This document shows positions 19,820-41,405 of a DNA stretch of 64,000 bases, one piece after another. This DNA comes from a bacterium (GTDB lineage Bacteria > Ratteibacteria > UBA8468 > B48-G9 > DTJG01). The translations under genes and the position numbers were made by a program. Positions within the stretch are counted from its first letter, which is position 1, and each line of letters begins with the position of its first letter. The notes under the pieces are model-generated. The model searched no databases and was not told where the DNA came from. It saw nothing but the letters and a program-made list of their open reading frames with translations. Where the stretch lies: positions 1,389-65,388 of the forward strand of contig JAJYYV010000001.1 of the NCBI GenBank assembly GCA_021800535.1, read 5' to 3'.

Positions 19820-19828
19820 AATTCCTCC

Positions 19829-25213: not shown

Positions 25214-25828
25214 TCAAGAAAATTGGAATTTTTTTGTTTCAAAAAGATTTAGGCATACATCTACAACCCTGGAATCGTAAAAAATATTTTTTTTATTTGA
25301 TATTTCTTTAAGGGCAGTCTTTATTCCAAGGGCAGGTCTGTAAGGTCTGTGAAAAGTCATTGCTTCCACAACATCTGCTACAGCTATAATTTTTGCAGGG
25401 AATGTTATCATATTACTTTTAAGCCCATGGGGATATCCGGAACCATCTATTTTTTCATGATGTTGAAGTATGGAATTGGCAATAGGACCCATAAATTTTT
25501 TCAACTTTGTGGATTTTATTATTTCATATCCAATAATAGTATGTTCTTTTATAACAGAAAATTCATATGTGGCAAGTTTACCTGGTTTTCCAAGTATTTC
25601 TGCAGGAATCGCTATTTTCCCTATATCATGAATAATCCCGGCTATTTTAATTAAGGAAATATCTTCCTGGGATAGTTTAAACTTTTTAGCAATTGCACAG
25701 GATAATTGTGAAACCCTTTTTTCATGTCCCAATGTATAAGGGTCTCTTATTTCTATAATTTTTGAAATAAGGTCAACTATACCATTATAAATATTTATAT
25801 TAAATCTACCTGTTTCTATAGAGTTCAT
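25214..25828 (-). CDS. Stand-alone HD-GYP domain protein
   Basis: HEKRVSQLSCAIAKKF...IIHDIGKIAIP...HHEKIDGSGYPHGL. Confidence 0.8.
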   Translation of the reverse strand: MNSIETGRFNINIYNGIVDLISKIIEIRDPYTLGHEKRVSQLSCAIAKKFKLSQEDISLIKIAGIIHDIGKIAIPAEILGKPGKLATYEFSVIKEHTIIGYEIIKSTKLKKFMGPIANSILQHHEKIDGSGYPHGLKSNMITFPAKIIAVADVVEAMTFHRPYRPALGIKTALKEISNKKNIFYDSRVVDVCLNLFETKKFQFS

Positions 25829-26041: not shown

Positions 26042-26662
26042 TTATCCTAATTTATGTTGTTCTCTAATGATTCTTTTCTCAATTACGGCACTTGAAACTC
26101 CAAAAACTCTGCATATTGAACTTGCAATGTACTCCCTTGCCGCATCTCCAGATTTTTCCCAATCTATAAAACCTGCTTTCTTAGCTTTTTTATATGCTTG
26201 ATGCAATTCTTGTTTTAACCTATCAGTCGGAACAAGCAATCGTCCGGCAAATTCGTATGCCTGTTGTTCAATATAAGCATACTGGTCTTCTGGTATACAT
26301 TGAACAAATTTAATCCATTCTTGAATAGAAGTATGTTTAATACTTTGATAAATATTTTTATGAAGAATAAAATGTCCAAGTTCATGGGCTATGGAAAATC
26401 GCATTCTATTAAGCATACGGTCATTCATATATTCATCCATGTCGACTATAATTCTCGTTAAGTCTCCGGTCAAAAGAGCATCTACATCACCTTCACCTTT
26501 CAATGATGCAATAGGGTCTATCTGTAGTTTAAAATACCAAAGGACTTCTTCAATTTCTATTGGTACTTTATTCGAAGGCCATGAAATAGAACGAACATAA
26601 TCAGCTTTAGCCCATACTTGTTCTGGTGTAATAAATGGCACTTTAAAACTTTGTGAATCCAT
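26042..26662 (-). CDS. ImmA/IrrE family (COG2856) zinc metallopeptidase
   Basis: HEXXH in RFSIAHELGHFILH. Start overlaps the stop of the upstream HTH gene. Confidence 0.75.
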   Translation of the reverse strand: MDSQSFKVPFITPEQVWAKADYVRSISWPSNKVPIEIEEVLWYFKLQIDPIASLKGEGDVDALLTGDLTRIIVDMDEYMNDRMLNRMRFSIAHELGHFILHKNIYQSIKHTSIQEWIKFVQCIPEDQYAYIEQQAYEFAGRLLVPTDRLKQELHQAYKKAKKAGFIDWEKSGDAAREYIASSICRVFGVSSAVIEKRIIREQHKLG

Positions 26663-27051
26663 TAATCACGACCATGTTTTCTTATTTTTTCTGCAATGCG
26701 TTTCATTTCTTCTGGTGTAGGTTTCTGTCCACGCAATGTACGGAAAAATAGAGGTAAAGATTTTTTGAGTTCATGATCAGAAAGTATGTCTTTGGGTATA
26801 ATCCCTTGGGTTGTTGCAGCAAGATCAAAAAATTTATACCAGTTATCCGTGCCTTCTTCAAGACATAGTGTAGTAGCATATCGTTCAAGAATTTTATGAT
26901 TTTTGGGTGGAGGTATCGCACCTCGTTCCATCCGGCTAATATTTGCCGGATCAGCAGCAGCTTTTCGACAAAATTCTCGTAAAGTCAAATGTTTTTGCTG
27001 CCGCAAGGATTCAAAAAATCGGCCAAATGTATCTATCTGAATGTTAGCCAT
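26662..27051 (-). CDS. XRE-family helix-turn-helix regulator
   Basis: Start chosen at MANIQ (ATG with GGAGGAG RBS) rather than the longest ORF start at 27093. HTH region LTLREFCRKAAADPANISRMERG. Confidence 0.65.
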   Translation of the reverse strand: MANIQIDTFGRFFESLRQQKHLTLREFCRKAAADPANISRMERGAIPPPKNHKILERYATTLCLEEGTDNWYKFFDLAATTQGIIPKDILSDHELKKSLPLFFRTLRGQKPTPEEMKRIAEKIRKHGRD

Positions 27052-27141
27052 ATCTCCTCCTGGTTTAATATTGTTGTAAAAATTATACAACATAAATACA
27101 TATCAAGTCAATAAAACGTATTGTGTCGAAAATAAATATAC

Positions 27142-27446: not shown

Positions 27447-27944
27447 TTAGGGGCGGGGTCCCAAAATGAATCGTGCCCTTTCATGGCGTAACATTTCAAA
27501 AGGGGTTATACATTTAAGGCCTAATCCAATACAGGCATCAGGAATTTTTATTTTACGTGTAGAAGCAGAAGGAATTTCATGTGTAACAACGGTATGTTGA
27601 CCTGCTTTTGCCTGAGCCACGAGATAATAATCTGCGACTTGAAGAAATGTACTAACAGCAGATGGTTCATAGCGTTGACCATTTGACGCCCATGCACTAA
27701 CAATGGTTAATGCAGGAAATATAGTAGTATCAGGTTTAAGAAAAAAACTAGGACTTAGAGTTTTTGCCCATTTTGATAAATCATCTTCAAGTGCAAAAAT
27801 CTCATCACCAACTTTTTCAATACTATATAAATTTCCAGCTGCATTTTCTTTGATGAGCCATTCCCAAAATGCTGGACAAAAATCCAATCCATAGTGCAAA
27901 TTTTTTGCACGAATAAAAACATCCGCATCAAGGAGATACGCCAT
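27447..27944 (-). CDS. PIN-like nuclease domain protein (DUF4411-like), putative toxin
   Basis: N-terminal acidic PIN motif LLDADVFI. 165 aa. Start overlaps the stop of the upstream HTH-ImmA gene. This family typically pairs with ImmA/IrrE peptidases. Confidence 0.6.
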   Translation of the reverse strand: MAYLLDADVFIRAKNLHYGLDFCPAFWEWLIKENAAGNLYSIEKVGDEIFALEDDLSKWAKTLSPSFFLKPDTTIFPALTIVSAWASNGQRYEPSAVSTFLQVADYYLVAQAKAGQHTVVTHEIPSASTRKIKIPDACIGLGLKCITPFEMLRHERARFILGPRP

Positions 27945-29089
27945 CAGGTATGTACCCCCAAATTATGGCCAAGATGATTAAATGTTTCCATTTTCTTAAT
28001 GCCAAGTAAACGGAATGATTCGGTAAATGACGTTCGTCCTTCCAACGTACTGGCAATTAATGCGCGGGTAAAGCATTTGCTCATTCGTGCGCCCAACGTC
28101 AAATAAAAATCACCACCGGTTCCTTGAGGAATTTCAATTAAGCGTTTTTCTTCACGTTTATAAGCATCCTGAAAATTTGCGTATGTAAGTTTCCCAGTAT
28201 CATAAATGCGACGTAAAATTACAAGGGTGCTAACTTTGAAATATCTTGCCAATCTGTTGACCTCATTTTGCAGGTCTGCTGTTTTTTTGTATTCTTGTTT
28301 CATTAGGTCAAGTGGTACCAATAATTCAGCAGCAACTTGATTACACCAACGTTCTATATATTGATTGGGAACAATAGCGGGTTGAGCATTGGAAACGGCG
28401 GATTGGCCTAACCAGATATGAGCAAGTTCGTGTGCCAATGTAAACATTTGTGCAGATTTGGTATCTGCTCCATTGATAAATATTAATGGAGCAAGATTAT
28501 CTGATATGGCAAAACCACGAAATTCTTCAGGATCCAGGTGCCGGTGGGTATTATTATTAACTACACTATTGCACATTACCAAAATACCAATATTATCTGT
28601 TTGCTCAATAAAATGCCGAAGAGCATCTGTCCATGTTGGTATCTGGTGACGTTCATTTACATCAAAGTTTAGTATGTTCCGAATTTCTGTTGCTGTCAGA
28701 ATAATGTTATCGCGAAGATTGACAGAACCAACAAGGTTCAATGGTTTTTCGCCGTTAAAACGGGCATAATCTTGGTACCATTCTTGACGTTGCTGACAAA
28801 TATATATGGTATCTAACAAATCAGGAGATGGATGACTGAAATCTTCTTTTTCAATCGTGCGAAAATCAGGAATTGGTATTTTTTCAACCGGCGGCTCTTG
28901 AAGAAACAAATAACCTACAGGCGTATGTGTAGTATTGGCAAAAGATTCAATCTGTTTTAGTGTAGGATGCGTTTCGCCTCGTTCCCAAGCCGATAATTTT
29001 GGAAATTTACGTTCCAAATCAGAAATAATATATCCCGCTCGTTCATATGCCCAGCGTATAAGATTTGGATTAATTTCAACCCGATTCAT
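27944..29089 (-). CDS. HTH-ImmA/IrrE fusion: N-terminal XRE-like HTH plus COG2856 metallopeptidase
   Basis: HEXXH in FTLAHELAHIWLGQ. N-terminal ~70 aa are HTH-like (LSAWERGETHPTLKQIESFA). GC visibly higher than flanking genes. Confidence 0.7.
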   Translation of the reverse strand: MNRVEINPNLIRWAYERAGYIISDLERKFPKLSAWERGETHPTLKQIESFANTTHTPVGYLFLQEPPVEKIPIPDFRTIEKEDFSHPSPDLLDTIYICQQRQEWYQDYARFNGEKPLNLVGSVNLRDNIILTATEIRNILNFDVNERHQIPTWTDALRHFIEQTDNIGILVMCNSVVNNNTHRHLDPEEFRGFAISDNLAPLIFINGADTKSAQMFTLAHELAHIWLGQSAVSNAQPAIVPNQYIERWCNQVAAELLVPLDLMKQEYKKTADLQNEVNRLARYFKVSTLVILRRIYDTGKLTYANFQDAYKREEKRLIEIPQGTGGDFYLTLGARMSKCFTRALIASTLEGRTSFTESFRLLGIKKMETFNHLGHNLGVHT

Positions 29090-29165: not shown

Positions 29166-32024
29166 CTATTTATTATGTTCATCGTATATTGACTTTAAAA
29201 ACTTATAATCAGAACTACGCCTAAAGTAAAGATTACAAATGTCATTTGCGTCTTTGATTTGTTCTTCTTTTTTTGTATCGTACAAAAATTTTACAATTGA
29301 AGATATATCTTCTTCTTTATAATCAGGATAATCAGGGGTAGCATGGTATAATATTTCTAAAAATATTTTCCCCACATATTTATAACTTGCTCCTTTGTCT
29401 TTCAATTCGTTAAGATATTCAATAAAAAAAGATGCGGTAAAATGAATATTAACATAAGGGGCTGATAACTGTAACCATTTGGCATTTTCATTGTTTATTT
29501 CTGGTAAAAAAACAGTAAGTTTAGCTAATTCTGACAAGATTTCTTTTTCTTCTTTAGAGAAAGAAGTTTTATTCTTATATTTATTTTTATAAACCCATTC
29601 CCAGAAATCAATAATTCTTTTTTTAAAACTTTCAATTTCCGGTGTCTTTTCTACTTTAGTTTTGTTTTGAATAGATTCTATAAGATAATCCCTTTGCATC
29701 CAGAAAAATCCGATTATACTTTCTATTTGTGCTGGATTCCATTTATCAAGAATTTTTCTGAATAAACCAGTAGTATTATCTATCTTTTCAATTTCACGCA
29801 AATATCCTATGCAAATATGTTGAACAAATCTATCAGCAGAATGTTCTTCATTCAATCCATAATTTAACATATTTTCATAATGCGATTTCATTAGTTCGTA
29901 TAATTCGTCATAAACATTAGCCCTGTATAAATATCCACTCATGAACGCTTTCCATAATTGTCCTTTTTCAGGGGTGATTGTTTCTATTTTCTTTTTTGTC
30001 CATTCTTTATCCATAGTGTAGAAATTTGGTAAATATACTCCAAGCCAGACATAACTTTCTACTATATTGTTAGCCAACAATTTTTCATATTTCTTCTTGA
30101 TATCTATTTCCCAACCAACGGATTGTTTATTTCCAAATTTATCCTCAATTTTTTTAATTCTGAAAGTTAACTTAATCAACGCTTCTGTTATTTTTCCAAA
30201 AGAAGAATTTAATGCATAACTTAAGAAACCGTTTCTAATAGGATGTTCTTTTAATATTTTTTCCTTCTCTGGCAGCATATTATCTAATAGGAAGAATAAA
30301 ATGTTTTGTATAGTATCAAAATGTTCTTCAGGTATTAACCATGCATCATATTCATATCCAGCCACAATAAGTTCACCTATCATATTTATTACCCACAGAT
30401 GATTTGCTTTAAGAAAATCATCTTCAGATTTATATTTGGTATTATCATTCCAGAAATCTTCTGGGTCTATATATTTTCTGATAAATTCCAAGAATTTTTT
30501 CCAATCAAATGTTTTTTTCTTCTTCCATGCATTCAATATTCCCCAAAGAATATCTGAGATATACAGATAGGCTGTTTCAAGGAAAGGTTCTAAATCTTCA
30601 ACAAATTTTTCCGGTTTTTCCTCAGCGGCTCTTTTTAAAATATCAGATAAACCGCCAACAGTTGGCCCTTTCCAAGGGTCCATTGTTCGGAATGTTTTTA
30701 AATATGCTGCCAGTTCTGTATTAGATTTCCCCAAAATATCTTCTATCGTTAATGGAGATGGACCAGGTCCTACATGTACTCCTGATTCTTCAAATCTAAG
30801 GTCTTCTTCTGGATGAGGTTCTCTGGGTACTTTGTTTTCTATAATATATTTAATATTTTCTTTTTCAGTGGGTGGAAATTTACTAAAATGTGAATCATTG
30901 AAAAGACTATTCTCTGTATCTTCTTTAATCATTTCCCAGAAAACATCTTTATAAATGTTCCATTCCATCCCAATTACATATAAAACAAGACGTTGAAATA
31001 ATGGATATGGATATTCTTTACTTAAAAATTTGTCTATTATTTTTTGTGTTGCTTCTTTATTATTTTTCGCTTTAGATAAGAAAATATCTTTTAATATCAG
31101 CGTAAGTGTTTCTTTTGGATTGGAATAAATATGTTTCGAAACATTAAATAGTGATGGGAGCCAAATATATGAATAATCATCTTTATGTTCTGGATATTCT
31201 TGTTCAAATATACCCATTAATTTATTGGCAAGATTATATATGATATTTTCGCTACACTTTTCTCCTATTTTAACGGCATTTTTTTTATTAATAAAAGATT
31301 CTATTAACCAATAAGTATCAATTGCCATTTTGGGTTCCTTTTTTTCAAAATCCAAAAATGCGAGACGAAGTTTTTCCTCATCGGTCATTTCATCTTGAGG
31401 CTTATTAAGAATGTCTGCATATTTTTCTTTCATCTCTTTTTTTTGTTGTTCAGTATATTTAGGAACCCATTTTATCTCGGTGATTATATCTATAATTTTT
31501 TCTGCTTTTTGAATATCCTGCGAAGTGGAATTATCAGAAAGAAATTTGGGCAAAAGATTTGTTGCTATTCTTACTCCTTGAGATGTGACGCCAAATTTGG
31601 AATTAAGCCAGATAGGAATTAGGTCCAAAATTTCATCACTAATTTTTTCATTTGGCAAATTTACCAGAATTTTTATGAAATATGTCCATGTGCGATAATT
31701 ATCAATATATTGCTTATTGTTATCTTTATAGCTTGATACTTTTTTTATAATATTCAGTAATTCATCAATATATTTTTCGTTTTCTGGAATATTAACTTGC
31801 TGAGAAATTTTTTCAAGATAAGGCAAAACATTCCATTGAGGGATTTTGTAGTAACCTTTTTCTTTTGCTTCTATAAAATTTGGGGCTTTATCTGGAGAAA
31901 AATAGTCTCGTTGTTTTAGGGAATCAAACCATTTTATATCAGAGATATTCTTGAAGAAGTAATCTTGATATATAGGATCTTCTATTAGTTTTAATACAGA
32001 CTGTTCTTTTGGAGTTAAGTTCAT
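29166..32024 (-). CDS. Uncharacterised 952-aa alpha-helical protein, translationally coupled to the upstream SIR2 gene
   Basis: Long ORF with no Walker, nuclease or other catalytic motif seen. K/E/Y/W-rich with a repetitive helical character. 4-nt overlap with the SIR2 gene at 32021-32024. Confidence 0.55.
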   Translation of the reverse strand: MNLTPKEQSVLKLIEDPIYQDYFFKNISDIKWFDSLKQRDYFSPDKAPNFIEAKEKGYYKIPQWNVLPYLEKISQQVNIPENEKYIDELLNIIKKVSSYKDNNKQYIDNYRTWTYFIKILVNLPNEKISDEILDLIPIWLNSKFGVTSQGVRIATNLLPKFLSDNSTSQDIQKAEKIIDIITEIKWVPKYTEQQKKEMKEKYADILNKPQDEMTDEEKLRLAFLDFEKKEPKMAIDTYWLIESFINKKNAVKIGEKCSENIIYNLANKLMGIFEQEYPEHKDDYSYIWLPSLFNVSKHIYSNPKETLTLILKDIFLSKAKNNKEATQKIIDKFLSKEYPYPLFQRLVLYVIGMEWNIYKDVFWEMIKEDTENSLFNDSHFSKFPPTEKENIKYIIENKVPREPHPEEDLRFEESGVHVGPGPSPLTIEDILGKSNTELAAYLKTFRTMDPWKGPTVGGLSDILKRAAEEKPEKFVEDLEPFLETAYLYISDILWGILNAWKKKKTFDWKKFLEFIRKYIDPEDFWNDNTKYKSEDDFLKANHLWVINMIGELIVAGYEYDAWLIPEEHFDTIQNILFFLLDNMLPEKEKILKEHPIRNGFLSYALNSSFGKITEALIKLTFRIKKIEDKFGNKQSVGWEIDIKKKYEKLLANNIVESYVWLGVYLPNFYTMDKEWTKKKIETITPEKGQLWKAFMSGYLYRANVYDELYELMKSHYENMLNYGLNEEHSADRFVQHICIGYLREIEKIDNTTGLFRKILDKWNPAQIESIIGFFWMQRDYLIESIQNKTKVEKTPEIESFKKRIIDFWEWVYKNKYKNKTSFSKEEKEILSELAKLTVFLPEINNENAKWLQLSAPYVNIHFTASFFIEYLNELKDKGASYKYVGKIFLEILYHATPDYPDYKEEDISSIVKFLYDTKKEEQIKDANDICNLYFRRSSDYKFLKSIYDEHNK

Positions 32025-33013
32025 TCGAGCACCTCGTCAATTAATCGTATTTTTTCTAGAAATTCCTTAGGCTGTGAAACAGGACCTATCTGCTTTGACC
32101 AATTTTCAATTACTTTAGAAAGATGTTCATAACCATCATTGTCTATAGGATAAGGAATCAATTTGACTCCAAAGCTTAAATAATATTTTTCAAGTCGGCG
32201 AAGTATATCAAATTCTTCCTGGAATATTGGATACAGCATAAAATGCTTTAATTCTTTTTCAACAATATGTGATTTACTAATCATAAACTCTAAGATTTCA
32301 TATTCCTCTAAACCGTAGCCAATAAATAATACCGTATGATTTACGAAAATTTCCTCTAACAACACTGAGGGTTCTGAACCTTTTTCATAATGGCTCATAT
32401 AATCAACAATTGTCATTATTCTGTCTTGATTTTGTATTCTTCCATGAAGATAAAGAACATTACCCTTATCTAAATTTACTGTTAGCATTTCTTTTTTTGA
32501 AGAAAAGATATTTTGTTTTTCCTTTCTAATCACATCTTCAGATATCGAGTTAGCGATGAGTTTCGGTGGTTCCAGATGAGTTTTTCTAGCTTCCTTGGCC
32601 AGATAATCATCATAATTTGTGGTTACGTAGATGACATTAAAATTGTACAAATGTTCATATATTCTATATTCTTCAATCAATTTATCTTTGCCCTTTAAGA
32701 AAGAATTTAAATCTGCAGGAACAATATTTTTTCCCTCTTCATAAATCTTCATACAGATAGATAACAATTTTCTTGCATCTAAAGATTCAAGATGTTTGTA
32801 TTCATGAAAGCTGATGGATTTCTTTTTACGTAAGTCTTTTAAATATAAAGTGGCCAACTTATACCAAGAAGGACAACCGATAATTCGAGAAACGCCTGCT
32901 CCAATAAATAAAACTAATTTCCCTCTTTTCGCAGCATCAAAAATTTCTGATGGTATATCAGGAATATTTTTTATTCTAATTTCATTAGATTTCCTAGGAG
33001 AATGCGTTTTCAT
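32021..33013 (-). CDS. SIR2-like protein, SIR2_2/DUF4020-type (defence-associated sirtuin)
   Basis: VLFIGAGVSRIIGCPSW (GAGxS), VTTNYDDYL (TTNYD) and LHGR motifs are typical of bacterial defence SIR2 domains such as ThsA and DSR. Confidence 0.7.
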   Translation of the reverse strand: MKTHSPRKSNEIRIKNIPDIPSEIFDAAKRGKLVLFIGAGVSRIIGCPSWYKLATLYLKDLRKKKSISFHEYKHLESLDARKLLSICMKIYEEGKNIVPADLNSFLKGKDKLIEEYRIYEHLYNFNVIYVTTNYDDYLAKEARKTHLEPPKLIANSISEDVIRKEKQNIFSSKKEMLTVNLDKGNVLYLHGRIQNQDRIMTIVDYMSHYEKGSEPSVLLEEIFVNHTVLFIGYGLEEYEILEFMISKSHIVEKELKHFMLYPIFQEEFDILRRLEKYYLSFGVKLIPYPIDNDGYEHLSKVIENWSKQIGPVSQPKEFLEKIRLIDEVLE

Positions 33014-33037: not shown

Positions 33038-33223
33038 TCAATTTTTGACTAATTCCTTACTCATTTCACTCCAAAGAGGGCATTCATATATTTTTGAAAC
33101 TCCAGCTCCAAGAAAAAGAATAATATTATCTTCTTTAGCCGCCAGATGAAGTTCTTTAAAATCGTCTTTCTGAAATTGCAATAAACGTTCAATTTTATCT
33201 ATAGAAACATTTCCATTCTCCAT
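33038..33223 (-). pseudogene. N-terminal remnant (~61 aa) of a third SIR2-like gene
   Basis: MENGNVSIDKIERLLQ...NIILFLGAGVSKIYECPLWSEMSKELVKN* carries the GAGVS nucleotide-binding loop but stops before the TTNYD core. It lies between the MTase stop and the intact SIR2 start. Confidence 0.55.
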
Positions 33224-33224
33224 A

Positions 33225-36200
33225 TTATATACTCCTGGCTTTTTGAAGACGATTTTTAACAAGTTCACATACAGACCAATAAACTTCATTTCGTTCTTCT
33301 TGGGTCAATCCTAATTCATCAAATACAATGCTATCAAGTTCTTTCCTGTCCGGAAGAGGATTGGGCTCCTGCCCTCGAATTGGCTTTGACGGATCAAAGC
33401 CAAGTTCGGTGAAGATGGTAGGAATTTTTTTCTCTATAAAAGCTTGAAAAATCTCTTTATTAAATTTTAACAACTTTACATCAGGTAGAGGCATTTCACT
33501 ATAGTGATAAACTTTCATTTGTAATGCGCCTAGTCCTTCTGGAGCACGACACAAAAGTTCTTTCCAAAGCCCAATAATCATATTATTTAGAAGTAAATTT
33601 AAATTTTCTTCATTAATTCCTTTTGAATAGCACCAATACAATGCTGCATCTATATATGCCTGAGCAAAATTATAAAAACAATATTTCCTTTCGTTTTCAA
33701 ACATTGGTAAAATATTTTTACTTATTCCCCATATTCCTAAATCCCACCATTTAGGTCTTCCTCTACAGGTTGGTCTTTTATTAAATCCCTGTTTCTCACC
33801 CCATTCTATATATTCAAGCGCTTTTGTTTCTTTTAATTCTGCTTTTGATTTATGGCACATAAAAACAAGATAATTCAAATCTTCAAGACGCACAATTATG
33901 GTTTTTAATTCTCTGGGGCTTTTTATTACAGGTTTTAAAAATCTTACTTCAATTTCACCTTCCCAACCCCCTCCATTTTTCACTCTTATCAAAGCATCGG
34001 GATTTTTCTCTGAAATCTCCACCACTTCTTTAACAGTCATTCCAACTGGTTTTAAATAAAAAAATTCATTTGCTCCAGTTTTAATTCCAAATTTTACTTC
34101 TGCAATATCTCCTAAGCGGACAAGTTTTCCTTTACCTTTTTCCAGAATTTTGAAATAAATATCTGGAGCCCTTAGATATTTTCCACCCCATTTGTTTCCT
34201 GTATATTCACCCAACTGTAATTCATTTCCTTTTTTCAAGCCATACAGAGATTCCTTTTCTTCAGGGTATTTTAGGGCTTCTTCCAATAATTCCTTTTGTT
34301 TCTTTGGATATACCCGAAAATCAGAAGTTGCAAGAACTTTATCGGAATACTCAATTTTTAGAAGATTTTCAGCGTTTATAACTTCTTCAAAAGGTCTTTT
34401 GAACATAACGAATTTGACGATATTATCCAGAAATGAAAAATTTTTGCCTGTTTTATCTGGAGAACCAAATAAAGAAATAATAGTATTTACATCTGCATGT
34501 TCAAAACTCCGTTTTGCCTGATTATCATAAATGGCAATAACCGGTACATGTTTAAGAAGGAATTCCTGTAGTTCCTTACCATATCCAACATCAAGCCAGG
34601 AATTTGATGTTATAAAACAAAAAGTTCCTTTTCCGTTTAAAAGAGAAAGTCCGTGAAAGTAAAAATATACATAATAGTCACTTCTCTTATCTATATTTTG
34701 GATAAAAGGAAATTGAGCCTGTACGGATTTCAATAGTTTTTCCTTGTAATTCTGTTTGCTTTCATTATTAATTTCATTCTTCAGTTTGTTCGGAGGTGCT
34801 ATTTTTTCCTGTCGGACATAGGGAGGGTTGCCTATGATTATGTCAAAACCCCCTTTATCACCAAAAATTTCTACAAAATCAATGTCCCATATAAAAGGTT
34901 TCTGTTCTTTTAGTTTTTTTTCTGTTTCCTTCAGTTGAGATATTTCTGCATCAATCTCTTGTTTTTTTCTTTCAGAAATTTCCTGCAATTCATTTTCATC
35001 AAATAATTCCTTATCAGTTTTTTCTATTTCAAACAGTCTCAAGTCGTTTGCGTTAGATTTTTCTAAGTCCAGAGTTTGTTTTCTTTTTGTAAGGATTGTA
35101 ATCTGTTCATCTATTATTTCATAGAAAATTCGTAATTCCTCATGAATGAGAGATTCGGCTGTCTTAAATTTTGCTGTTGGCTCGTTGTTACAATATTTTT
35201 CCTTTTCCCTTTTAAGTTCAGAGAGTTTTCTTTTCATCCCGGGGGAAATTGTTTTTTCTCTTAAGTTTAAAGTAAGACCGCCAATTTCCTGCACCAAGGA
35301 ATCCCCAATACGAAGTTTTAGATTAAGATTAGGAAGTAGTGGTGTAATTTTAAGTTCGGCAAGTGTAAGATCGGATTCAATCATAAGCGATAACCACAAC
35401 CGTAATTCTGCTGAGTGCACAGCCCATGGCATTATGTCAACTCCATATAGAGAATTGCCTATAATGCGTTTTTTCAATTGATAATCTGTCATTTCCCGTT
35501 TTAAATGTTTATAATCAAATTTATAAAGTTCCACAAGAATATTTAGTATTCCAACCAAAAATGCGCCACTTCCACAGGCAGGGTCTAATATTGACAGATT
35601 ATCAAGAGATTCTTCCAATGTTTCATAGTCTTGAGATTGGAACTGTTTTTCAATTTTCATTTTGTCTTCATCAAATAGGAGATGATAGAGTAAATCTTTG
35701 GAGAATTTAGTTGTTTTTCCAAGATATTCAATAAGACTCCTTCTGCACATAAAATCTACTTCAATCTTAGGAGTATAAAAAATTCCCAGGTCTTGTCGTT
35801 CATAAATTTCTTCTGCCACGTTTGCAAGGGATTCATAGACGTATCCGAGCATTTGCGGGTCAATCGCCACCTCTACGTCAAGAGGCAGGTCTTCCCGAAT
35901 CGTAAAGTTATATTTTTCAAAAAACGCCAGAATGTTTTCAAGAAAAGCATCGTCGAGATTCACCTGCAACTCATCAAGGGGAGTTATTTTGAAAAGCCCA
36001 CCATTAAGAAAAGGCGCAAGGGAAAGTGCATCTTTTACATCCTGTGGTAAATATGCCGGATGACTAAACTGGTTATTGAAGGCTTCTAAAAATAATACTT
36101 CCAGCCATTTTTCATAAAACAAGTTTTCAGGAATTCCTTTTTTTCTTTCTTGTTTGTAGCGAGTCCAGAACCACTTCATAAATTTAGGGGAATGGCGAAA

Positions 36201-36869
36201 CCACATTTTCCTATCCACAAAATAAATGAACATAATCCGGTTAAGCAATTGTTGGGAAAATTCATGTGCTTTCTTAATGTCAATGTTCTGTGTTGTTAAG
36301 TTTTCCCTGAGGGCGAAGAAAATATTTTTATAATCTTCAAAAAACAAGCGGCTGACTTTTTCTATGCTAAGAGCTTCTTTAAAGATTTGATAAAGATGAA
36401 CAGGGTCATCGGTTTTTTGCTCGTTATACATCTGACATATAGTGAATCTATCCGTATAGTAAGCGTTTTCTCTATCAAAATGAAGTCTGACAAGTTTTTG
36501 CTTCCAAACCCCGACATCTTCTCTTATTTTCTCAATCAAAACAAAGACAAAATTCCGATAATCATCTGTAAAGATGAAAAGTGGATATTGAATTTCTTTT
36601 TCAAGAAAAAGAGAGATATTCTTAATTGTGGAAGGAGAAAGGGTTTCTAATTCTATTAGGGAAATCTGGAATCTTTTGGAGTAATTGCAAATCGTATATA
36701 TTTCTTTTATCGTATTCTTTTCTTTTTCCGGCAGGGTCCATGCTTCTTTCCCTTTATATTTTGAATCCAATATCTGATAGCCCAGTGTTTCAAATAGTTC
36801 ATAGACTTTTTCAGGGCTATTTATACCTAACAAATTAGTTTCTATATACTGGTTTATGTTCGTTTTCAT
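33225..36869 (-). CDS. 1214-aa gamma-class N6-adenine DNA methyltransferase, PglX/DrmMI/Eco57I-like (COG1002)
   Basis: Motif I ILDPACGSGAFLVGILN comes before motif IV IIIGNPPYVRQEKI. There is an N-terminal extension of ~430 aa and a C-terminal putative target-recognition region of ~450 aa. Confidence 0.8.
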   Translation of the reverse strand: MKTNINQYIETNLLGINSPEKVYELFETLGYQILDSKYKGKEAWTLPEKEKNTIKEIYTICNYSKRFQISLIELETLSPSTIKNISLFLEKEIQYPLFIFTDDYRNFVFVLIEKIREDVGVWKQKLVRLHFDRENAYYTDRFTICQMYNEQKTDDPVHLYQIFKEALSIEKVSRLFFEDYKNIFFALRENLTTQNIDIKKAHEFSQQLLNRIMFIYFVDRKMWFRHSPKFMKWFWTRYKQERKKGIPENLFYEKWLEVLFLEAFNNQFSHPAYLPQDVKDALSLAPFLNGGLFKITPLDELQVNLDDAFLENILAFFEKYNFTIREDLPLDVEVAIDPQMLGYVYESLANVAEEIYERQDLGIFYTPKIEVDFMCRRSLIEYLGKTTKFSKDLLYHLLFDEDKMKIEKQFQSQDYETLEESLDNLSILDPACGSGAFLVGILNILVELYKFDYKHLKREMTDYQLKKRIIGNSLYGVDIMPWAVHSAELRLWLSLMIESDLTLAELKITPLLPNLNLKLRIGDSLVQEIGGLTLNLREKTISPGMKRKLSELKREKEKYCNNEPTAKFKTAESLIHEELRIFYEIIDEQITILTKRKQTLDLEKSNANDLRLFEIEKTDKELFDENELQEISERKKQEIDAEISQLKETEKKLKEQKPFIWDIDFVEIFGDKGGFDIIIGNPPYVRQEKIAPPNKLKNEINNESKQNYKEKLLKSVQAQFPFIQNIDKRSDYYVYFYFHGLSLLNGKGTFCFITSNSWLDVGYGKELQEFLLKHVPVIAIYDNQAKRSFEHADVNTIISLFGSPDKTGKNFSFLDNIVKFVMFKRPFEEVINAENLLKIEYSDKVLATSDFRVYPKKQKELLEEALKYPEEKESLYGLKKGNELQLGEYTGNKWGGKYLRAPDIYFKILEKGKGKLVRLGDIAEVKFGIKTGANEFFYLKPVGMTVKEVVEISEKNPDALIRVKNGGGWEGEIEVRFLKPVIKSPRELKTIIVRLEDLNYLVFMCHKSKAELKETKALEYIEWGEKQGFNKRPTCRGRPKWWDLGIWGISKNILPMFENERKYCFYNFAQAYIDAALYWCYSKGINEENLNLLLNNMIIGLWKELLCRAPEGLGALQMKVYHYSEMPLPDVKLLKFNKEIFQAFIEKKIPTIFTELGFDPSKPIRGQEPNPLPDRKELDSIVFDELGLTQEERNEVYWSVCELVKNRLQKARSI

Positions 36870-36890
36870 TCTAAATCCTTCTGTAATCTT

Positions 36891-39800
36891 TCAGGAAATA
36901 AAATCTACACTGATAAGTGTCAATTTTTTCTCATCAAATTCTATCTGCTCAATTTGTTCTGTAACAGGTTTTTGTTTAAGGAAACTCATTATTTCCGTAA
37001 TAAAAACCTGCCAGTTCTTTGTATTTTTATAGACTCTCCATATTCTTCGGATTTCCTGCATTCTTTTTTTTGTCAAAGCAACATTGTGTAGACGTTCAAC
37101 TATATCGGTAATGCTATTTTTCAACGGGTCGTTCTGTTCCAAATAATTTTCCCGGATATAATCAAGTTCGTCTCTCATTTCTGCCAGTGTTTTTTCCATT
37201 CTACCGTGAGCCGTTCGTATCTGTGTTGCGACCAGGTTTGCAGAAAAGAATTTTTGAATTTCTTTTTTTACCTCTTCATGTATTTGAAATACATCAATGC
37301 CATCGGGAATTATCCTCGGTTCGTTTGGTTTACAACTGATATAATTCAAAATTTCAGTTTTGTTGGTTATGATTTTTTTCTGCATAATATCATATAAGTA
37401 CCATAAATGATAATCTTCATCATATTTGTAGTAAAAGAAAATCCCTTTCAAATCTCTTACTAATCCGCTTTGAATACCATGCGGTAATTCTTCACAGAAT
37501 TCCTTTAGTTTGTCTAATCCAAAATCTTTTAGAGGCTGCCAGAAATTTTCGCCACCGCCGAATTGTTCTTCTTCAAGATTTTGTAATACTTTTTCTTTAG
37601 TTTGTTCATCCCTTCTTAGGTTTCGTATGATGCCAAAAACTTTAGGATTGATAATTTCCCCAAGAACAGAGGCGTCCAGCCCAACAGTTTCATTGATAAG
37701 GTTAATTTTTTTCTCCAGTATTCTTACCAATTCAAGAAGGCTTTCCAGTTCTTTTTCCGGATAAAAATTGTAAATATTTATTTCTTCAAACGAAGAACCA
37801 ATTCTGTCTATTCTTCCGGCTCGTTGAATCATTCTGACAGGATTCCAGTGCAGGTCATAATTTATGCAAATTCCTGCTTTTTGAAGATTCTGACCTTCGG
37901 ACAAGATATCTGTGGAAAGAAGAACATCTATGTCAGATTCCAGAAAGTCATTGATTATTTCTTTTCGTTTTAACATCGGGAAACTGCCGGTAACACATTC
38001 TATGCGTTTGCCGAAATCTTTCTGAAATTGTTCATCATTCTTATCGTTCAATGCATTATACAGGTAATCTATTGTATCGGCATAAAAAGAGAATAACAGA
38101 ATTTTTCCTTTGTTCTTTAATTTTATAAGAGTATTTTTGAGTTCAACCAGTTTTGCATCTTTTGAAATGTCAATAGGATTTACAAGACAAAAAAGTTCCT
38201 CAAAAATGGAAATATCTTTTTTAATATCATTCATAAAAGCGGTGCCATTATATTCACTGATATTAATGGATTCAAGATATTTTCCGATTGTTTCAAAAAT
38301 ATAGGAATTGTCATCCAAATCGCCTTCAAGATAAGAGATATATTTGTCGTAAAATTTCTTTTTAAGAACTTTTCCTTGTTTGAAAAATTCTTCAAATTTT
38401 TTCAGAAATTTTATCTGACTTTGAATGCTTTTTCTGAAAGCCTCAACACTGCTTTCAAGACGTTTCAACAGAATGGTCTGAAGTATCCCACCTAAAGCTT
38501 TCATCCTACCCATGGCAAGAACATCTTTTTCCCCGGCAGTTTTGTATTCTTCAAGACGGTAATATGCCAATGTCAATTCTTTTTCAACTTTATCAGCAAT
38601 CTTGTGATATAAACCTTGATATGTTTCATCAAGGCTGTAATTGATTTCGTTCAGTTTCCGGTATGGAAATTTTATCGAAATCCAAATACCGTTAATATCT
38701 TTATATTTGGCATCAGGATAATTGGCCTTAATATACTGTCTGGTTCTTCGTATTGCAATAGACTGCAGGATATCGGATAGTTGAGCAATATCTCCTTTAT
38801 CCGCTTTTTTGAACTGGTTCTCAAGATTAAAAATTCCTTCTTTTGCGAAAATCCGTTTGTCGTTTCTTGCAATAAGCATCAACTGAAAATACAAATCCCA
38901 ATGAGTATTGTTCATCGGGGTTGCGGTTAAAAGGAGAATTTTTGGAGCAGTTTTTCCGCTTGCTTTTTCTATCAGAGTGAAAAGATTTTCATAGCGATTT
39001 GAAAATGGGTTTCGGAAATTGTGGGATTCATCTATAACAAATAATGCTACATCCTCTAATTTAAATCCAATTTCTTTTTCCATGAAGTCGAAATCTATGT
39101 TTTCAGAACCAAGTTCCTCTTGATGCAAGATGTTTTCTGAAACCCCTATATCCTTCAGAGCAGGTCTCCAAAGAGTTTCATCTACGGAAGCAGGACATAT
39201 GACTACAAATCTTCTTCTCCTATAAAACCCGAAATCCTCTATGATTTTCTTAGCAATCCAGGTTTTTCCCAACCCTACGGAATCCGCCACCAGAACTCCG
39301 TTATAAGTTTTTAGTCTTGAATAGATACGTTTAACCGCGTCTTCCTGGAAATTTGCGAGGTCAACTTCTGTGGAAGGCATTTCTTCGGGTGTTTCATAGT
39401 CAAAAAGAATGTCGTCTTTCTGCAATTCATAAAGGGATTTTATAAAAATATGATATGGAAGATACTCTTTTGTTCCAAATTTTGATGCATCAAGAATTGT
39501 AATGAGTTCTTGTTTAAAATCAGTCGCCTCAGTCCATAGTTTTTCAAACCATTCTTCTTTTATGTATCTGCTATGTGCTTCATCAAGTACTGCATTAAGT
39601 TCTGTATTAGAGGTGAATCCTGCAAATGTAAAATTGCTTGACCCAACAATGGCGAGTTTTTCAAAAATATATGCTTTCCCGTGGAGAAAACTTTTTTTGT
39701 AAAGTTTTACTTCAACGGATGACTGTTTAAGAAAAGAGATAAGTTTTATAACGGTATCTTTTATATTGTGATGAAAATCTTCATCTTCTATATCTTTTCT

Positions 39801-40049
39801 TAATTTCTGTTTATATTGCAACTCAGGTTCAAATAAATCTGGTTGTAAAGCACATTCATCCGTATAAATTCCCAGAAGTAGTCGGAAATGTTCAGTTTTC
39901 AGAAGAGATTCTTTAACAAGACTGAAACCAGCAACGTTAAAATAGGCTGTAGCAACTGATAAAGTTTTCTGTTCATTAATGATTTTGTTTAACTCATCAA
40001 AAAGTTTCAGTTTTTCATTATCAATAACCAGATTTTCAGGTCGATACAT
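36891..40049 (-). CDS. PLD-family nuclease domain fused to an SNF2-family helicase (DrmC+DrmD-like fusion)
   Basis: N-terminal single HKD motif HGKAYIFEKLAIVGSSNFT. SNF2 motifs: Walker A VADSVGLGKTW, DEAH-box VIDESHNFRN, motif III LLLTATPMNN, C-terminal HELICc SEGQNLQ and QRAGRIDRIGS. Confidence 0.75.
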   Translation of the reverse strand: MYRPENLVIDNEKLKLFDELNKIINEQKTLSVATAYFNVAGFSLVKESLLKTEHFRLLLGIYTDECALQPDLFEPELQYKQKLRKDIEDEDFHHNIKDTVIKLISFLKQSSVEVKLYKKSFLHGKAYIFEKLAIVGSSNFTFAGFTSNTELNAVLDEAHSRYIKEEWFEKLWTEATDFKQELITILDASKFGTKEYLPYHIFIKSLYELQKDDILFDYETPEEMPSTEVDLANFQEDAVKRIYSRLKTYNGVLVADSVGLGKTWIAKKIIEDFGFYRRRRFVVICPASVDETLWRPALKDIGVSENILHQEELGSENIDFDFMEKEIGFKLEDVALFVIDESHNFRNPFSNRYENLFTLIEKASGKTAPKILLLTATPMNNTHWDLYFQLMLIARNDKRIFAKEGIFNLENQFKKADKGDIAQLSDILQSIAIRRTRQYIKANYPDAKYKDINGIWISIKFPYRKLNEINYSLDETYQGLYHKIADKVEKELTLAYYRLEEYKTAGEKDVLAMGRMKALGGILQTILLKRLESSVEAFRKSIQSQIKFLKKFEEFFKQGKVLKKKFYDKYISYLEGDLDDNSYIFETIGKYLESINISEYNGTAFMNDIKKDISIFEELFCLVNPIDISKDAKLVELKNTLIKLKNKGKILLFSFYADTIDYLYNALNDKNDEQFQKDFGKRIECVTGSFPMLKRKEIINDFLESDIDVLLSTDILSEGQNLQKAGICINYDLHWNPVRMIQRAGRIDRIGSSFEEINIYNFYPEKELESLLELVRILEKKINLINETVGLDASVLGEIINPKVFGIIRNLRRDEQTKEKVLQNLEEEQFGGGENFWQPLKDFGLDKLKEFCEELPHGIQSGLVRDLKGIFFYYKYDEDYHLWYLYDIMQKKIITNKTEILNYISCKPNEPRIIPDGIDVFQIHEEVKKEIQKFFSANLVATQIRTAHGRMEKTLAEMRDELDYIRENYLEQNDPLKNSITDIVERLHNVALTKKRMQEIRRIWRVYKNTKNWQVFITEIMSFLKQKPVTEQIEQIEFDEKKLTLISVDFIS

Positions 40050-40082: not shown

Positions 40083-41192
40083 TTATTTTATGTCAAGAAA
40101 TTTTACAATGGAATCTTCATAATCAGTAACATTATTGGTAAAAGATTTATCTATACAAAGAAAATTTTTTTTGTAATAGGAAAACAACGTTTTGTATATG
40201 TTTGTTGCTCGGGGATCTATTATTGCAACTTTTAGTTGATTCCTCAATCGTAAAGCACTCTTTAAAAATGTTATGGTAATATAATCTCTGAAAGAATATC
40301 CTATAAAAATGATATATTGAGTATTATAAAAGCATTGTTGAAGATAAGAATATGCAGTAATAAATGGGTCAAAAATAATTTCTTTAGTATTATTGGGATA
40401 CAAAATAACAGGTTTTATCCTATGGTCGGTTGGAAAATTTGTGGCGATAGGAGAATAAACTATGCTTCCTTGATCATTATACCAAAAAATTGAACCATGT
40501 AATTTAAAAAAACATATTTTTAAAATTTTTCCTGCAGATTTTAATTCATCAAACGATGAATAGGTCCATTGCATTCTTCTATATTTATTTTTGTATTCAA
40601 AACCATCTGTTAATTCGATTCCTTCTTCTATTTCGCAGAATTTTTCAATGGAACGATCATAATTGGTTGTAAAAATACTGATAATTTTTTTCTTTTCTGC
40701 AATAAGTTTTTTTTTAATGATATCAAAAAATGGTTTATATAAATTGTTCACTTTTTGTTCATCTACAGAGTAATAGGTTGTAAATATTTCTGAATATATT
40801 TTCCAGCGTAATGATAAACATTTATTACACAATAATTCATATTGAATTCCAAAATTAGATTCTGACGGTAATTGAGTTTCCGGTAAATTTGATAATAATG
40901 CACTGAGAGTGTTGCTCGGAGTTTTATCGAATAAATTTTTGAAGTAATTTCGTGGAGAAGGTCCTTTAAAATAATCTTTTTTACATATTTCATCTATTTC
41001 ATCTAATATAGTCTCTAAATCTTTTCCTTTCGTTTTGATAATAGTGTTGATTATTTCTTTCTCTTCCTGGTCCAGAAAAGTTTTATTAAGCAATATATCA
41101 ACAAATCCTTTCATTAAAGGTTTATCCAAAAAAGCAGATGCTCCAGCTCCTAAAAAAATCACTATTGGGGCGTTAATAATTTGTTTATTCAT
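40083..41192 (-). CDS. SIR2-like protein, SIR2_2/DUF4020-type
   Basis: VIFLGAGASAFL, IFTTNYDRSIE and KLHGSIFW motifs. Confidence 0.7.
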   Translation of the reverse strand: MNKQIINAPIVIFLGAGASAFLDKPLMKGFVDILLNKTFLDQEEKEIINTIIKTKGKDLETILDEIDEICKKDYFKGPSPRNYFKNLFDKTPSNTLSALLSNLPETQLPSESNFGIQYELLCNKCLSLRWKIYSEIFTTYYSVDEQKVNNLYKPFFDIIKKKLIAEKKKIISIFTTNYDRSIEKFCEIEEGIELTDGFEYKNKYRRMQWTYSSFDELKSAGKILKICFFKLHGSIFWYNDQGSIVYSPIATNFPTDHRIKPVILYPNNTKEIIFDPFITAYSYLQQCFYNTQYIIFIGYSFRDYITITFLKSALRLRNQLKVAIIDPRATNIYKTLFSYYKKNFLCIDKSFTNNVTDYEDSIVKFLDIK

Positions 41193-41201
41193 TTTCTCTT
41201 T

Positions 41202-41405
41202 TTATTCATCAATGAAATGACTGGCAGTTTTTTTTAAGACACCTGCTATTTTTATGAGTGTTTCCAGTGAAGGGATTACTTTGCCTGTTTCATAAAGTGA
41301 TAAGCTCTTCTGGTTAGTGTGAATTTTTTTTGCGAGTTCAGATTGCGTAAGGTCAAGTTCAACACGGGCTACTTTTATTTTTTTTCCCAGTTTTTTGGCA
41401 TCCAT
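41202..41405 (-). CDS. XRE-family HTH regulator (67 aa) heading the SIR2 / PLD-SNF2 / MTase array
   Basis: LDLTQSELAKKIHTNQKSLSLYETGKVIPSLETLIKIA is a canonical XRE HTH. 10-bp gap to the SIR2 gene. Confidence 0.65.
   Translation of the reverse strand: MDAKKLGKKIKVARVELDLTQSELAKKIHTNQKSLSLYETGKVIPSLETLIKIAGVLKKTASHFIDE

What the first reader, a model, noticed from the sequence alone, without database searches (positions are those of the whole stretch)
29166..33013. SIR2_2 gene translationally coupled to a 952-aa helical protein: a possible split DSR-like two-gene system
The 330-aa SIR2 (GAGVS, TTNYD) stop overlaps the start of a 952-aa ORF by 4 nt (ATGA-type coupling). The large protein has no recognisable enzymatic motif and looks alpha-helical and repeat-like. 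Single-chain defence-associated sirtuins (DSR1/DSR2) have exactly this layout as one polypeptide, an N-terminal SIR2 plus a ~700-1000-aa C-terminal sensor region. Here it appears as two genes, which would be a split variant. Alternatively it is a new SIR2 plus sensor pair.
Basis: inference. Interest (0 to 1): 0.7.

Follow-up and report, generated by a model that had tools for sequence, protein, structure and literature searches.

The report
Two-gene (split) DSR1 antiphage sirtuin
A small NAD-degrading SIR2 enzyme gene and an overlapping gene for a large helical sensor protein together match, end to end, the single-protein antiphage sirtuin DSR1; the split is real and shared by dozens of unrelated microbes, so it is a common but barely described two-gene form of a known defence system, not a new system.

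Summary
On the minus strand, a 330-aa SIR2_2 gene (32021..33013) overlaps a 952-aa ORF (29166..32024) by ATGA. A GAGG ribosome-binding site lies 7 nt upstream of the second start.

One PADLOC Dsr1 model (1227 positions) is covered collinearly by both proteins: SIR2 on positions 5-299 (E 5e-66), the large protein up to position 1225 (E 4e-122).

The split is not a frameshift or an artefact:
- The DNA is identical in independent assemblies.
- Of 73 related genome loci, 37 have a separate SIR2 gene abutting the sensor gene, broken at the same linker position. Another 15 are fused SIR2-sensor and 15 fused TIR-sensor.
- About 70% of the sensor's nearest relatives are stand-alone genes.

The pair falls far below NCBI's Dsr1 equivalog threshold, so it is a divergent DSR1-type clade. 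B. anthracis pXO1 carries a fused member.

The likely mechanism is inferred, not tested: a two-subunit NADase that fires when the alpha-solenoid sensor binds a phage protein.

Also noted: a 61-codon remnant of a displaced SIR2 gene, and recurrent linkage of such modules to a type IIG methyltransferase gene.

Novelty is modest: a new variant of a known kind.

The parts
32021..33013 (-). SIR2 effector gene (330 aa), equivalent to the N-terminal domain of DSR1. NAD-binding GAGVS is at 32888..32902, Asn133 at 32615..32617, His190 at 32444..32446.
   Evidence: Pfam SIR2_2 E 3.8e-12. PADLOC Dsr1 PDLC04166 E 5.4e-66 on model positions 5-299. In 38 related SIR2 sequences G40, D135, H190 and G232 are invariant and N133 is present in 37. 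Coordinates checked.
29166..32024 (-). Sensor gene (952 aa), equivalent to the C-terminal ~900 residues of DSR1. N-lobe aa 1-396 (30837..32024), disordered linker aa 397-422 (30759..30836), C-lobe aa 423-952 (29169..30758).
   Evidence: PADLOC Dsr1 PDLC04166 E 3.8e-122; no Pfam or NCBIfam hit. AF2 model pLDDT 86.6, all-alpha, two lobes. Only generic HEAT/ARM-type solenoid neighbours. 28% identity over the full length to the C-terminal part of the 1320-aa pXO1 protein.
32021..32024 (-). ATGA stop/start overlap (translational coupling).
   Evidence: In 32 split relatives, 22 junctions overlap (-1 to -14 nt) and 8 have gaps of 0-10 nt.
32032..32035 (-). GAGG Shine-Dalgarno for the sensor gene, embedded in the conserved ...IDEV codons of the SIR2 tail.
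   Evidence: The same GAYGAGGT motif precedes the sensor start in many relatives.
33038..33223 (-). 61-codon remnant (plus stop) of the 5' end of a different DSR1-type SIR2 gene. It starts 1 nt after the stop of the type IIG gene.
   Evidence: PADLOC Dsr1 positions 16-51, E 4.5e-5. 67-73% identical to SIR2 N-termini of another subclade (L019, L003, L011) but 42% to the resident SIR2.
33225..36869 (-). Neighbour: type IIG restriction-modification/methyltransferase (1214 aa). Recurrently found directly upstream of DSR1-type modules; not required for them.
   Evidence: Pfam Eco57I and MmeI_Mtase; PADLOC REase_MTase_IIG. Homologues or C-terminal remnants lie upstream of the module in about 15 loci. 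Its closest relatives lack the module.
36891..40049 (-). Neighbour: PLD nuclease + SNF2 helicase (1052 aa), partner of the type IIG gene.
   Evidence: Pfam PLDc_2, SNF2-rel_dom and Helicase_C. Directly upstream of the IIG homologue in at least 9 of 13 metagenome loci.

Best explanation
This is a two-subunit, translationally coupled version of the antiphage sirtuin DSR1. The upstream gene makes a 330-aa SIR2 NAD+ glycohydrolase with an intact active site. The overlapping downstream gene makes a 952-aa, two-lobed alpha-solenoid sensor. It corresponds to the C-terminal region that, in single-chain DSR1, recognises a phage protein.

Shown here: both genes are homologous and collinear with single-chain DSR1-type proteins. 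The break lies in the inter-domain linker. The two-gene layout with overlapping or abutting junctions is conserved across many bacterial and archaeal phyla.

Inferred: the two proteins are made in about 1:1 ratio and form a complex. Binding of a phage structural protein to the sensor releases or assembles the SIR2 subunits. The major capsid protein is the candidate, by analogy with E. coli Dsr1. SIR2 then hydrolyses NAD+ and stops phage replication.

The module is a self-contained, exchangeable cargo. It sits in a defence island directly behind a PLD-SNF2 helicase / type IIG methyltransferase pair, where it displaced an earlier DSR1-type module.
For: Collinearity with DSR1:
- PADLOC Dsr1 PDLC04166: SIR2 on positions 5-299 (E 5.4e-66); sensor E 3.8e-122, up to position 1225. 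Stand-alone relative P0007 covers positions 309-1226.
- Concatenated split pairs align with fused relatives through the junction. The break is at the same linker position in every split pair.

Conserved pairing:
- 5 of 5 stand-alone relatives (42-50% identity) have a 321-339-aa SIR2_2 gene directly upstream.
- 37 of 73 genome loci are split SIR2+sensor, 15 fused SIR2, 15 fused TIR.
- 30 of 32 junctions overlap or have a gap of 10 nt or less.
- 84 of the 120 best homologues, and 96 of 135 full-length 50%-cluster representatives, are stand-alone sensors.

Not an artefact: identical DNA in independent assemblies.

Active site: G40, D135 and H190 are invariant and N133 is present in 37 of 38 related SIR2 sequences.

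Link to canonical Dsr1:
- NCBIfam Dsr1 NF041818 is the only family hit by stand-alone sensors (6 of 39, best E 1.5e-18).
- It hits the sensor region of fused relatives collinearly.
- The pXO1 1320-aa protein is a fused member.

Literature:
- DSR1 depletes NAD+ during infection (bioRxiv 10.1101/2021.12.14.472415).
- The EcDsr1 sensor is shared with Avs7 and is triggered by phage major capsid protein (PMC12803255 / PMC13581612).
Against: - No experiment exists on any split member. Complex formation, NADase activity and the trigger are all inferred.
- The pair is far from the validated proteins: NF041818 gives 33 bits for the SIR2 and nothing for this sensor, against a 1400-bit cut-off. Extrapolating the capsid-protein trigger is therefore weak.
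- Structure searches return only generic HEAT/ARM solenoids. The A1 profile finds no solved relative by sequence.
- SIR2-versus-sensor identity correlates less well in split pairs (r 0.38) than in fused ones (r 0.80). Partners may therefore re-assort.
- The genes lie in a co-directional array with no intergenic terminator-like site, so dependence on neighbouring genes is not excluded.
Confidence: 0.78

Rival explanations
1. A decaying single-chain DSR1: one frameshift or nonsense mutation, or a sequencing error, cut a 1280-aa gene into two ORFs, and the locus is a pseudogene.
For: The two ORFs add up to 1282 aa, the size of fused relatives (1250-1358 aa). They differ by one reading-frame shift at the junction. 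A real SIR2 gene remnant lies just upstream, so gene decay does occur at this site.
Against: The DNA is identical in independent assemblies. The same break point recurs in 37 loci from many phyla, with different junction types (-14 to +10 nt), each with its own start codon and many with a Shine-Dalgarno sequence. Both ORFs are intact over their full length and active-site residues are conserved.
Confidence: 0.03
2. The SIR2+sensor pair is a functional accessory of the adjacent PLD-SNF2 helicase / type IIG methyltransferase system. It would form a four-gene system, for example a second-line guard that fires when restriction is blocked, like PrrC with EcoprrI.
For: An IIG homologue, or its conserved C-terminal ~60-70-aa remnant, lies directly upstream on the same strand in about 15 of 73 loci, whatever the effector type. 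A PLD-helicase homologue is also present in L005, L040, L046, L067 and L069. Gaps are a few nt and no terminator-like site lies between the genes.
Against: Dispensability runs both ways. Most module loci have no IIG or helicase neighbour, and several keep only a ~70-aa IIG remnant (L009, L013, L063). None of the closest IIG relatives (54-66% identity), which do keep the helicase, has a DSR1 module downstream. Single-chain DSR1 works alone.
Confidence: 0.1
3. A SIR2+sensor pair with a different output or input from DSR1. For example, the SIR2 could ADP-ribosylate or deacylate a target rather than deplete NAD+, or the sensor could recognise nucleic acid or a host signal rather than a phage capsid protein.
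For: The pair is very distant from the characterised DSR1 proteins. The sensor fold is a generic solenoid with no informative neighbour. Even for DSR1, NAD+ depletion was reported as transient and non-abortive.
Against: Every characterised defence SIR2_2 protein cited here (DSR1, DSR2, SIR2-HerA, SIR2/pAgo) is an NADase. The same sensor scaffold is fused to TIR domains, another NADase-type effector class (my own knowledge), in 15 loci. This fits interchangeable NAD+-degrading outputs.
Confidence: 0.09

Closest known systems
DSR1 (defence-associated sirtuin 1; PADLOC Dsr1 PDLC04166 clade; fused example WP_001074482.1 on B. anthracis pXO1)
   Same: Same SIR2_2 effector and same ~900-aa helical sensor, in the same order, with end-to-end collinearity. 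Same defence-island setting. Catalytic Asn/His conserved.
   Different: Encoded as two overlapping genes rather than one polypeptide. Far below the NCBIfam Dsr1 equivalog threshold (33 bits versus 1400; the sensor alone gives no hit), so only distantly related to E. coli Dsr1. SIR2 is 38% and sensor 28% identical to the pXO1 protein.
DSR2 (B. subtilis; PDB 8k98 and others)
   Same: N-terminal SIR2 NADase plus a large helical C-terminal sensor. The SIR2 domain is detectably similar (E 4.8e-11).
Avs7 (STAND NTPase whose sensor is shared with Dsr1; PMC13581612)
   Same: According to that paper, Dsr1 and Avs7 share a bilobed helical-repeat sensor that binds the phage major capsid protein and is combined with many effectors. 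The model here is also two-lobed and all-helical.
   Different: No STAND NTPase domain here (no Pfam hit). Homology of this sensor to Avs7 itself was not testable: no Avs7 structure or sequence was available in the libraries.
TIR-sensor fusions of the same sensor family (e.g. P0004, L008)
   Same: Sensor 52% identical to the window protein, with the same PADLOC model coverage.
   Different: TIR replaces SIR2 and is almost always fused: 15 fused versus 1 possible split, against 15 fused and 37 split for SIR2.
Short pAgo SIR2-APAZ/Ago and SIR2-HerA systems
   Same: A SIR2 NADase encoded as a separate gene next to its sensing partner. That SIR2-APAZ also occurs both fused and split is my own knowledge.
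   Different: The partner proteins (Argonaute, HerA ATPase) are unrelated to this sensor, and none is present in this module.

Membership tests
DSR1 | N-terminal-type SIR2_2 domain with NAD-binding glycine motif and catalytic Asn/His | tested here: met
   Pfam SIR2_2. PADLOC Dsr1 positions 5-299, E 5.4e-66. GAGVS, N133 and H190 are present and conserved in relatives.
DSR1 | ~900-aa helical C-terminal region homologous to that of DSR1 | tested here: met
   PADLOC Dsr1 PDLC04166 E 3.8e-122. 28% identity over the full length to the pXO1 single-chain protein, E 3e-89. NF041818 hits 6 of 39 stand-alone relatives and the sensor region of fused relatives.
DSR1 | Single polypeptide / single-gene system (as defined by Gao 2020, PADLOC and NCBIfam) | tested here: not met
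   Two ORFs in different frames with an ATGA overlap, reproduced in independent assemblies.
DSR1 | Passes the NCBIfam Dsr1 equivalog model NF041818 (cut-off 1400 bits) | tested here: not met
   SIR2 scores 33 bits and the sensor gives no hit. Fused relatives also reach only 40-80 bits.
DSR1 | NAD+ depletion on phage infection; protection abolished by SIR2 active-site mutation | not testable with these tools
   Known for DSR1/DSR2 from bioRxiv 10.1101/2021.12.14.472415. No data exist for any split member.
DSR1 | Activation by phage major capsid protein (EcDsr1) | not testable with these tools
   PMC13581612. This is an inference for the present pair only.
DSR2 | C-terminal domain homologous to the DSR2 tail-tube-binding region | tested here: not met
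   No PADLOC Dsr2 hit. PDB sequence matches to DSR2 lie only in the SIR2 protein. The sensor profile has no PDB hit. No DSR2 chain is in the fold-search tops.
Avs7 / STAND | STAND NTPase (NOD) domain between effector and sensor | tested here: not met
   No Pfam, NCBIfam or PADLOC NTPase hit in either protein.
SIR2-HerA | Adjacent HerA-type ATPase | tested here: not met
   No HerA in the locus. In L001 a SIR2-HerA pair is a separate neighbour of the split module.
Thoeris ThsA | SIR2 fused to a SLOG domain, with a TIR ThsB partner | tested here: not met
   Only weak ThsA SIR2-region hits (E 7e-9). No SLOG domain or ThsB is present.

The most novel reading that the evidence does not exclude
DSR1-type effector-sensor modules are mobile cargo that travels with the unusually conserved 3' end of a type IIG methyltransferase gene. 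They are functionally tied to the PLD-SNF2 helicase / type IIG restriction system as a second-line response when restriction fails. The split architecture lets the effector or the sensor be exchanged independently. The 61-codon remnant of a different SIR2 lineage at the IIG stop codon would be a footprint of such an exchange.
Probability: 0.1. Interest if true: 0.65.

Novelty: new variant of a known kind. Interest (0 to 1): 0.35.

Why it matters
DSR1 is catalogued and modelled as a single-gene system. Here, in the sensor clade around this locus, the two-gene form is the commonest layout: about half of the related genome loci and about 70% of the closest sensor homologues. Single-gene definitions can therefore miss or mislabel many instances, typically as "SIR2 family protein" plus "hypothetical protein".

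A naturally split DSR1 also gives a simple experimental handle on how a sensor activates a SIR2 NADase. The two halves can be expressed, titrated, swapped and purified separately.

The interleaving of split-SIR2, fused-SIR2, fused-TIR and unknown-effector forms on the sensor tree documents frequent effector exchange on one sensor scaffold. None of this changes the basic picture of DSR-type NAD+-depletion immunity.

Tried and rejected
- The Foldseek afdb50 library was not available. The sensor could therefore not be compared with AlphaFold models of annotated Dsr1 proteins.
- The profile search of the sensor alignment against PDB sequences found nothing meaningful.
- A SIR2:sensor complex prediction was not possible. 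330 + 952 aa exceeds the 1200-aa limit, all fused SIR2 relatives are longer than 1200 aa, and chimeric inputs are not accepted.
- The supplementary tables of the Avs7/Dsr1 paper, which may list split proteins, are not held.
- Promoter and terminator scans were no better than shuffled sequence and gave no operon boundaries.
- The frameshift-pseudogene reading was considered and rejected.
- An obligate four-gene system with the helicase and IIG genes was considered and judged unlikely.
- M78 peptidase/DUF4411 and the 369-aa SIR2 as parts of the module were rejected: no homologues occur in any of the 82 related loci.
- The host organism was not identified.
Full report
**1. Observation**

The minus strand carries a 330-aa ORF (32021..33013) and a 952-aa ORF (29166..32024). 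Their junction is ...GAG GTG CTC GAA TGA, with the downstream ATG formed by the last A of GAA and the TG of the stop. This gives a 4-nt ATGA overlap at 32024..32021. An in-frame stop lies five codons upstream of that ATG and no other start codon intervenes. A GAGG Shine-Dalgarno lies 7 nt upstream, at 32035..32032.

The small protein contains GAGVS (38-42), TTNYD (131-135) and LHG (189-191), and hits Pfam SIR2_2. The large protein has no Pfam or NCBIfam hit. Its AlphaFold2 model has mean pLDDT 86.6 and pTM 0.57. It is entirely helical, with two lobes (aa 1-396 and 423-952) joined by a disordered linker.

The exact sensor protein is on 14 contigs. Three loci, from an ENA assembly, a JGI metagenome and a Logan run assembly, are 100% identical to the window over 14.7-22.9 kb.

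**2. What it is**

A single PADLOC model named Dsr1 (PDLC04166, 1227 positions) is matched by both proteins:
- The SIR2 protein covers positions 5-299 (E 5.4e-66).
- The large protein matches with E 3.8e-122; its best stretch, aa 404-951, covers positions 719-1225.
- A stand-alone relative covers positions 309-1226.

I concatenated the window pair, and five other split pairs, and aligned them with nine fused 1250-1358-aa relatives. The fused proteins read straight through. Every split pair is broken at the same place, in the short linker after the conserved ...LIDEV tail of the SIR2 domain.

A familiar fused member is the 1320-aa "SIR2 family protein" WP_001074482.1 on Bacillus anthracis pXO1. 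Its SIR2 part is 38% identical, and its C-terminal part is 28% identical over the full length of the sensor (E 3e-89). It hits the same PADLOC model.

**3. Is the split conserved?**

The sensor has many homologues, the best at only 55% identity. They occur in several architectures: stand-alone, SIR2-fused, TIR-fused, or fused to an unrecognised ~170-aa domain.

- All five stand-alone relatives whose contigs I looked up (42-50% identity) have a 321-339-aa SIR2_2 gene immediately upstream on the same strand. The junctions are -1, +2, -1, -14 and +3 nt.
- A scan of one genome per species returned 75 loci from many bacterial and archaeal phyla. My ORF/phmmer classification, with Pfam checks of the unclear cases, gave the table below.

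| Architecture (73 loci) | Loci |
|---|---|
| Split SIR2 + sensor | 37 |
| Fused SIR2-sensor | 15 |
| Fused TIR-sensor | 15 |
| Fused to the unknown ~170-aa domain | 2 |
| Possible split TIR | 1 |
| Other: one unclassified, one at a contig start, one fragment | 3 |

- In 32 split loci, 22 junctions overlap and 8 have gaps of 0-10 nt. Many carry the GAGG inside the IDEV codons.
- Of the 120 best homologues, 84 are stand-alone.
- In an exhaustive search of 1.84 billion cluster representatives, the family has 1951 members at E<=0.001 and 629 at E<=1e-30. Among the 135 full-length entries of the top 150, 96 are stand-alone.

One caveat applies. The genome scan used patterns from an alignment of stand-alone sensors, so the proportions describe this clade, not all DSR1.

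On a rough neighbour-joining tree of the sensors, the architectures are interleaved. For example, a TIR fusion is sister to a split-SIR2 locus. This implies repeated fusion, fission and effector exchange.

**4. Relation to characterised DSR proteins**

NCBIfam's Dsr1 equivalog model (NF041818, cut-off 1400 bits) gives 33 bits for the SIR2 protein and nothing for this sensor. Even so, it is the only NCBIfam family hit by stand-alone sensors (6 of 39, best E 1.5e-18). It also matches the sensor region of fused relatives collinearly. The pair therefore belongs to a divergent DSR1-type clade and is not an equivalog of E. coli Dsr1.

**5. Likely mechanism**

Shown here:
- The SIR2 active-site residues are intact and conserved. 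G40, D135, H190 and G232 are invariant and N133 is present in 37 of 38 related SIR2s.
- The gene pair is conserved and tightly coupled.

From the literature:
- DSR1 and other defence SIR2 proteins deplete NAD+ during infection (bioRxiv 10.1101/2021.12.14.472415).
- The Dsr1 sensor is homologous to the Avs7 sensor. E. coli Dsr1 is triggered by a phage major capsid protein (PMC12803255 / PMC13581612).

Inferred: the two products form a complex in about 1:1 ratio, helped by translational coupling. Binding of a phage protein to the sensor activates the SIR2 NADase, and NAD+ loss blocks phage replication. The identity of the trigger is the weakest step, given the distance from EcDsr1.

SIR2 and sensor identities correlate across split pairs (Mantel r 0.38; 2 of 2000 permutations reach it). 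The correlation is weaker than in fused proteins (r 0.80), which is compatible with occasional re-pairing.

**6. Surroundings**

The gene order on the minus strand is:
- tRNA-Ser (41932..42015)
- HTH, 67 aa (41202..41405)
- a second SIR2_2 gene, 369 aa (40083..41192)
- PLD-SNF2 helicase (36891..40049)
- type IIG methyltransferase (33225..36869)
- a 61-codon SIR2 fragment (33038..33223)
- the SIR2 + sensor pair
- M78 peptidase + DUF4411 (27447..29089)
- HTH + M78 (26042..27093)
- HD protein (25214..25828)

Housekeeping genes (GH95, gyrB, gyrA) follow.

The fragment begins 1 nt after the IIG stop codon. It is 67-73% identical to the N-termini of a different SIR2 subclade but only 42% identical to the resident SIR2. 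It is therefore the footprint of an earlier DSR1-type module that the present one displaced.

Homologues of the IIG gene, or only its last ~60-70 residues, lie directly upstream of the effector-sensor module in about 15 of the 73 loci, whatever the effector. Those last residues are 60-77% identical across loci, against 35-52% for the rest of the protein.

The closest IIG relatives (54-66% identity) keep the PLD-helicase directly upstream in at least 9 of 13 loci. None has a DSR1 module downstream. Many module loci also have no IIG gene. The helicase/IIG pair is therefore a separate two-gene system, noted before in PMC9881135, next to which DSR1-type modules are recurrent but optional cargo. 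A functional link is not excluded but is not favoured.

**7. Novelty and verdict**

The two-gene form is not described as such in the DSR literature I could search. [quoted passage not shown]

Splitting and fusing of effector and sensor is common in defence systems, so a specialist would not be very surprised. The useful points are these:
- The split form dominates this clade.
- SIR2 effectors are mostly separate genes, while TIR effectors are almost always fused.
- A natural two-subunit DSR1 is a convenient object for mechanistic work.

I rate it a new variant of a known kind, interest 0.35.

Noticed in passing
window 33038..33223 (-): A 61-codon ORF (MENGNVSIDKIERLLQFQKDDFKELHLAAKEDNIILFLGAGVSKIYECPLWSEMSKELVKN*) starts 1 nt after the type IIG stop codon. 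It is the 5' remnant of a SIR2 gene from a different DSR1 subclade: 67-73% identical to L019, L003 and L011, but 42% to the resident SIR2. This is evidence that one effector-sensor module replaced another at this site.
   Followed up: yes
window 40083..41192 (-) and 41202..41405 (-): A second, unrelated SIR2_2 gene (369 aa; PADLOC 'SIR2' E 4e-24, with Aga_SIR2-like hits) is preceded by a 67-aa HTH gene and lies directly upstream of the PLD-SNF2 helicase. No HerA or Argonaute partner is present. No homologue occurs next to the helicase/IIG pair in other loci.
   Followed up: partly
window 33225..40049 (-); loci L084-L095: The PLD-nuclease/SNF2-helicase gene and the type IIG (Eco57I/MmeI-like) methyltransferase form a conserved two-gene unit. 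The helicase is directly upstream of the IIG homologue in at least 9 of 13 metagenome loci. PADLOC and NCBIfam give only partial DISARM DrmD/DrmMI-like and 'HKD+Snf2' hits.
   Followed up: partly
L009:4776-5001, L013:4305-4602, L063:331-604, L067:3914-4142; full genes in L005, L012, L014, L036, L040: The last ~60-70 residues of the IIG protein (…PIREQKPNPLPDRK.LDDIVFD.LGLTE.ERNEVYW.VCELVKNRL.KARSV) are much better conserved than the rest. They survive as isolated remnants immediately upstream of DSR1-type modules. This suggests that modules move or recombine together with the 3' end of the IIG gene.
   Followed up: partly
genome loci L008-L082: The effector types differ in architecture. SIR2 is mostly a separate gene (37 split versus 15 fused). 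TIR on the same sensor scaffold is almost always fused (15 fused versus 1 possible split, L017).
   Followed up: no
L014 and L018 (N-terminal ~170 aa of the sensor ORF); P0012, P0014, P0042, P0095: A ~170-aa N-terminal domain with no Pfam hit replaces SIR2 or TIR on the same sensor. It contains …AHIAREIEGGIRD… and …HKYAHR.G.WK…. It is presumably an uncharacterised effector.
   Followed up: partly
window 27447..29089 (-) and 26042..27093 (-): Two toxin-antitoxin-like or regulatory pairs lie downstream of the sensor. One is M78/IrrE-type peptidase (381 aa) overlapping a DUF4411 gene (165 aa). The other is HTH (143 aa) plus a second M78 peptidase (206 aa). An HD-domain gene follows at 25214..25828. 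None is conserved next to the module elsewhere.
   Followed up: partly
window 41932..42015 (-), 42484..43272 (-), 44301..45191 (+), 46222..48031 (-): The defence island runs from the tRNA-Ser(tga) side. It also holds an HTH+SocA/Panacea antitoxin-type gene, a DUF488 protein, and a type II restriction enzyme with an N6/N4 methyltransferase. Housekeeping gyrB/gyrA (17366..22225) and a GH95 gene bound the other side.
   Followed up: no
L083 (B. anthracis pXO1, NC_007322.2 15174..19136): The anthrax plasmid pXO1 carries a single-chain 1320-aa member of this DSR1-type clade. It is annotated only as 'SIR2 family protein' and appears in about 120 Bacillus plasmid records.
   Followed up: partly
The homology search listed nothing above 55% identity, yet the exact 952-aa protein is on 14 contigs in the look-up index. 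An absence of close hits in that search therefore does not mean the sequence is absent from the collection.
   Followed up: no
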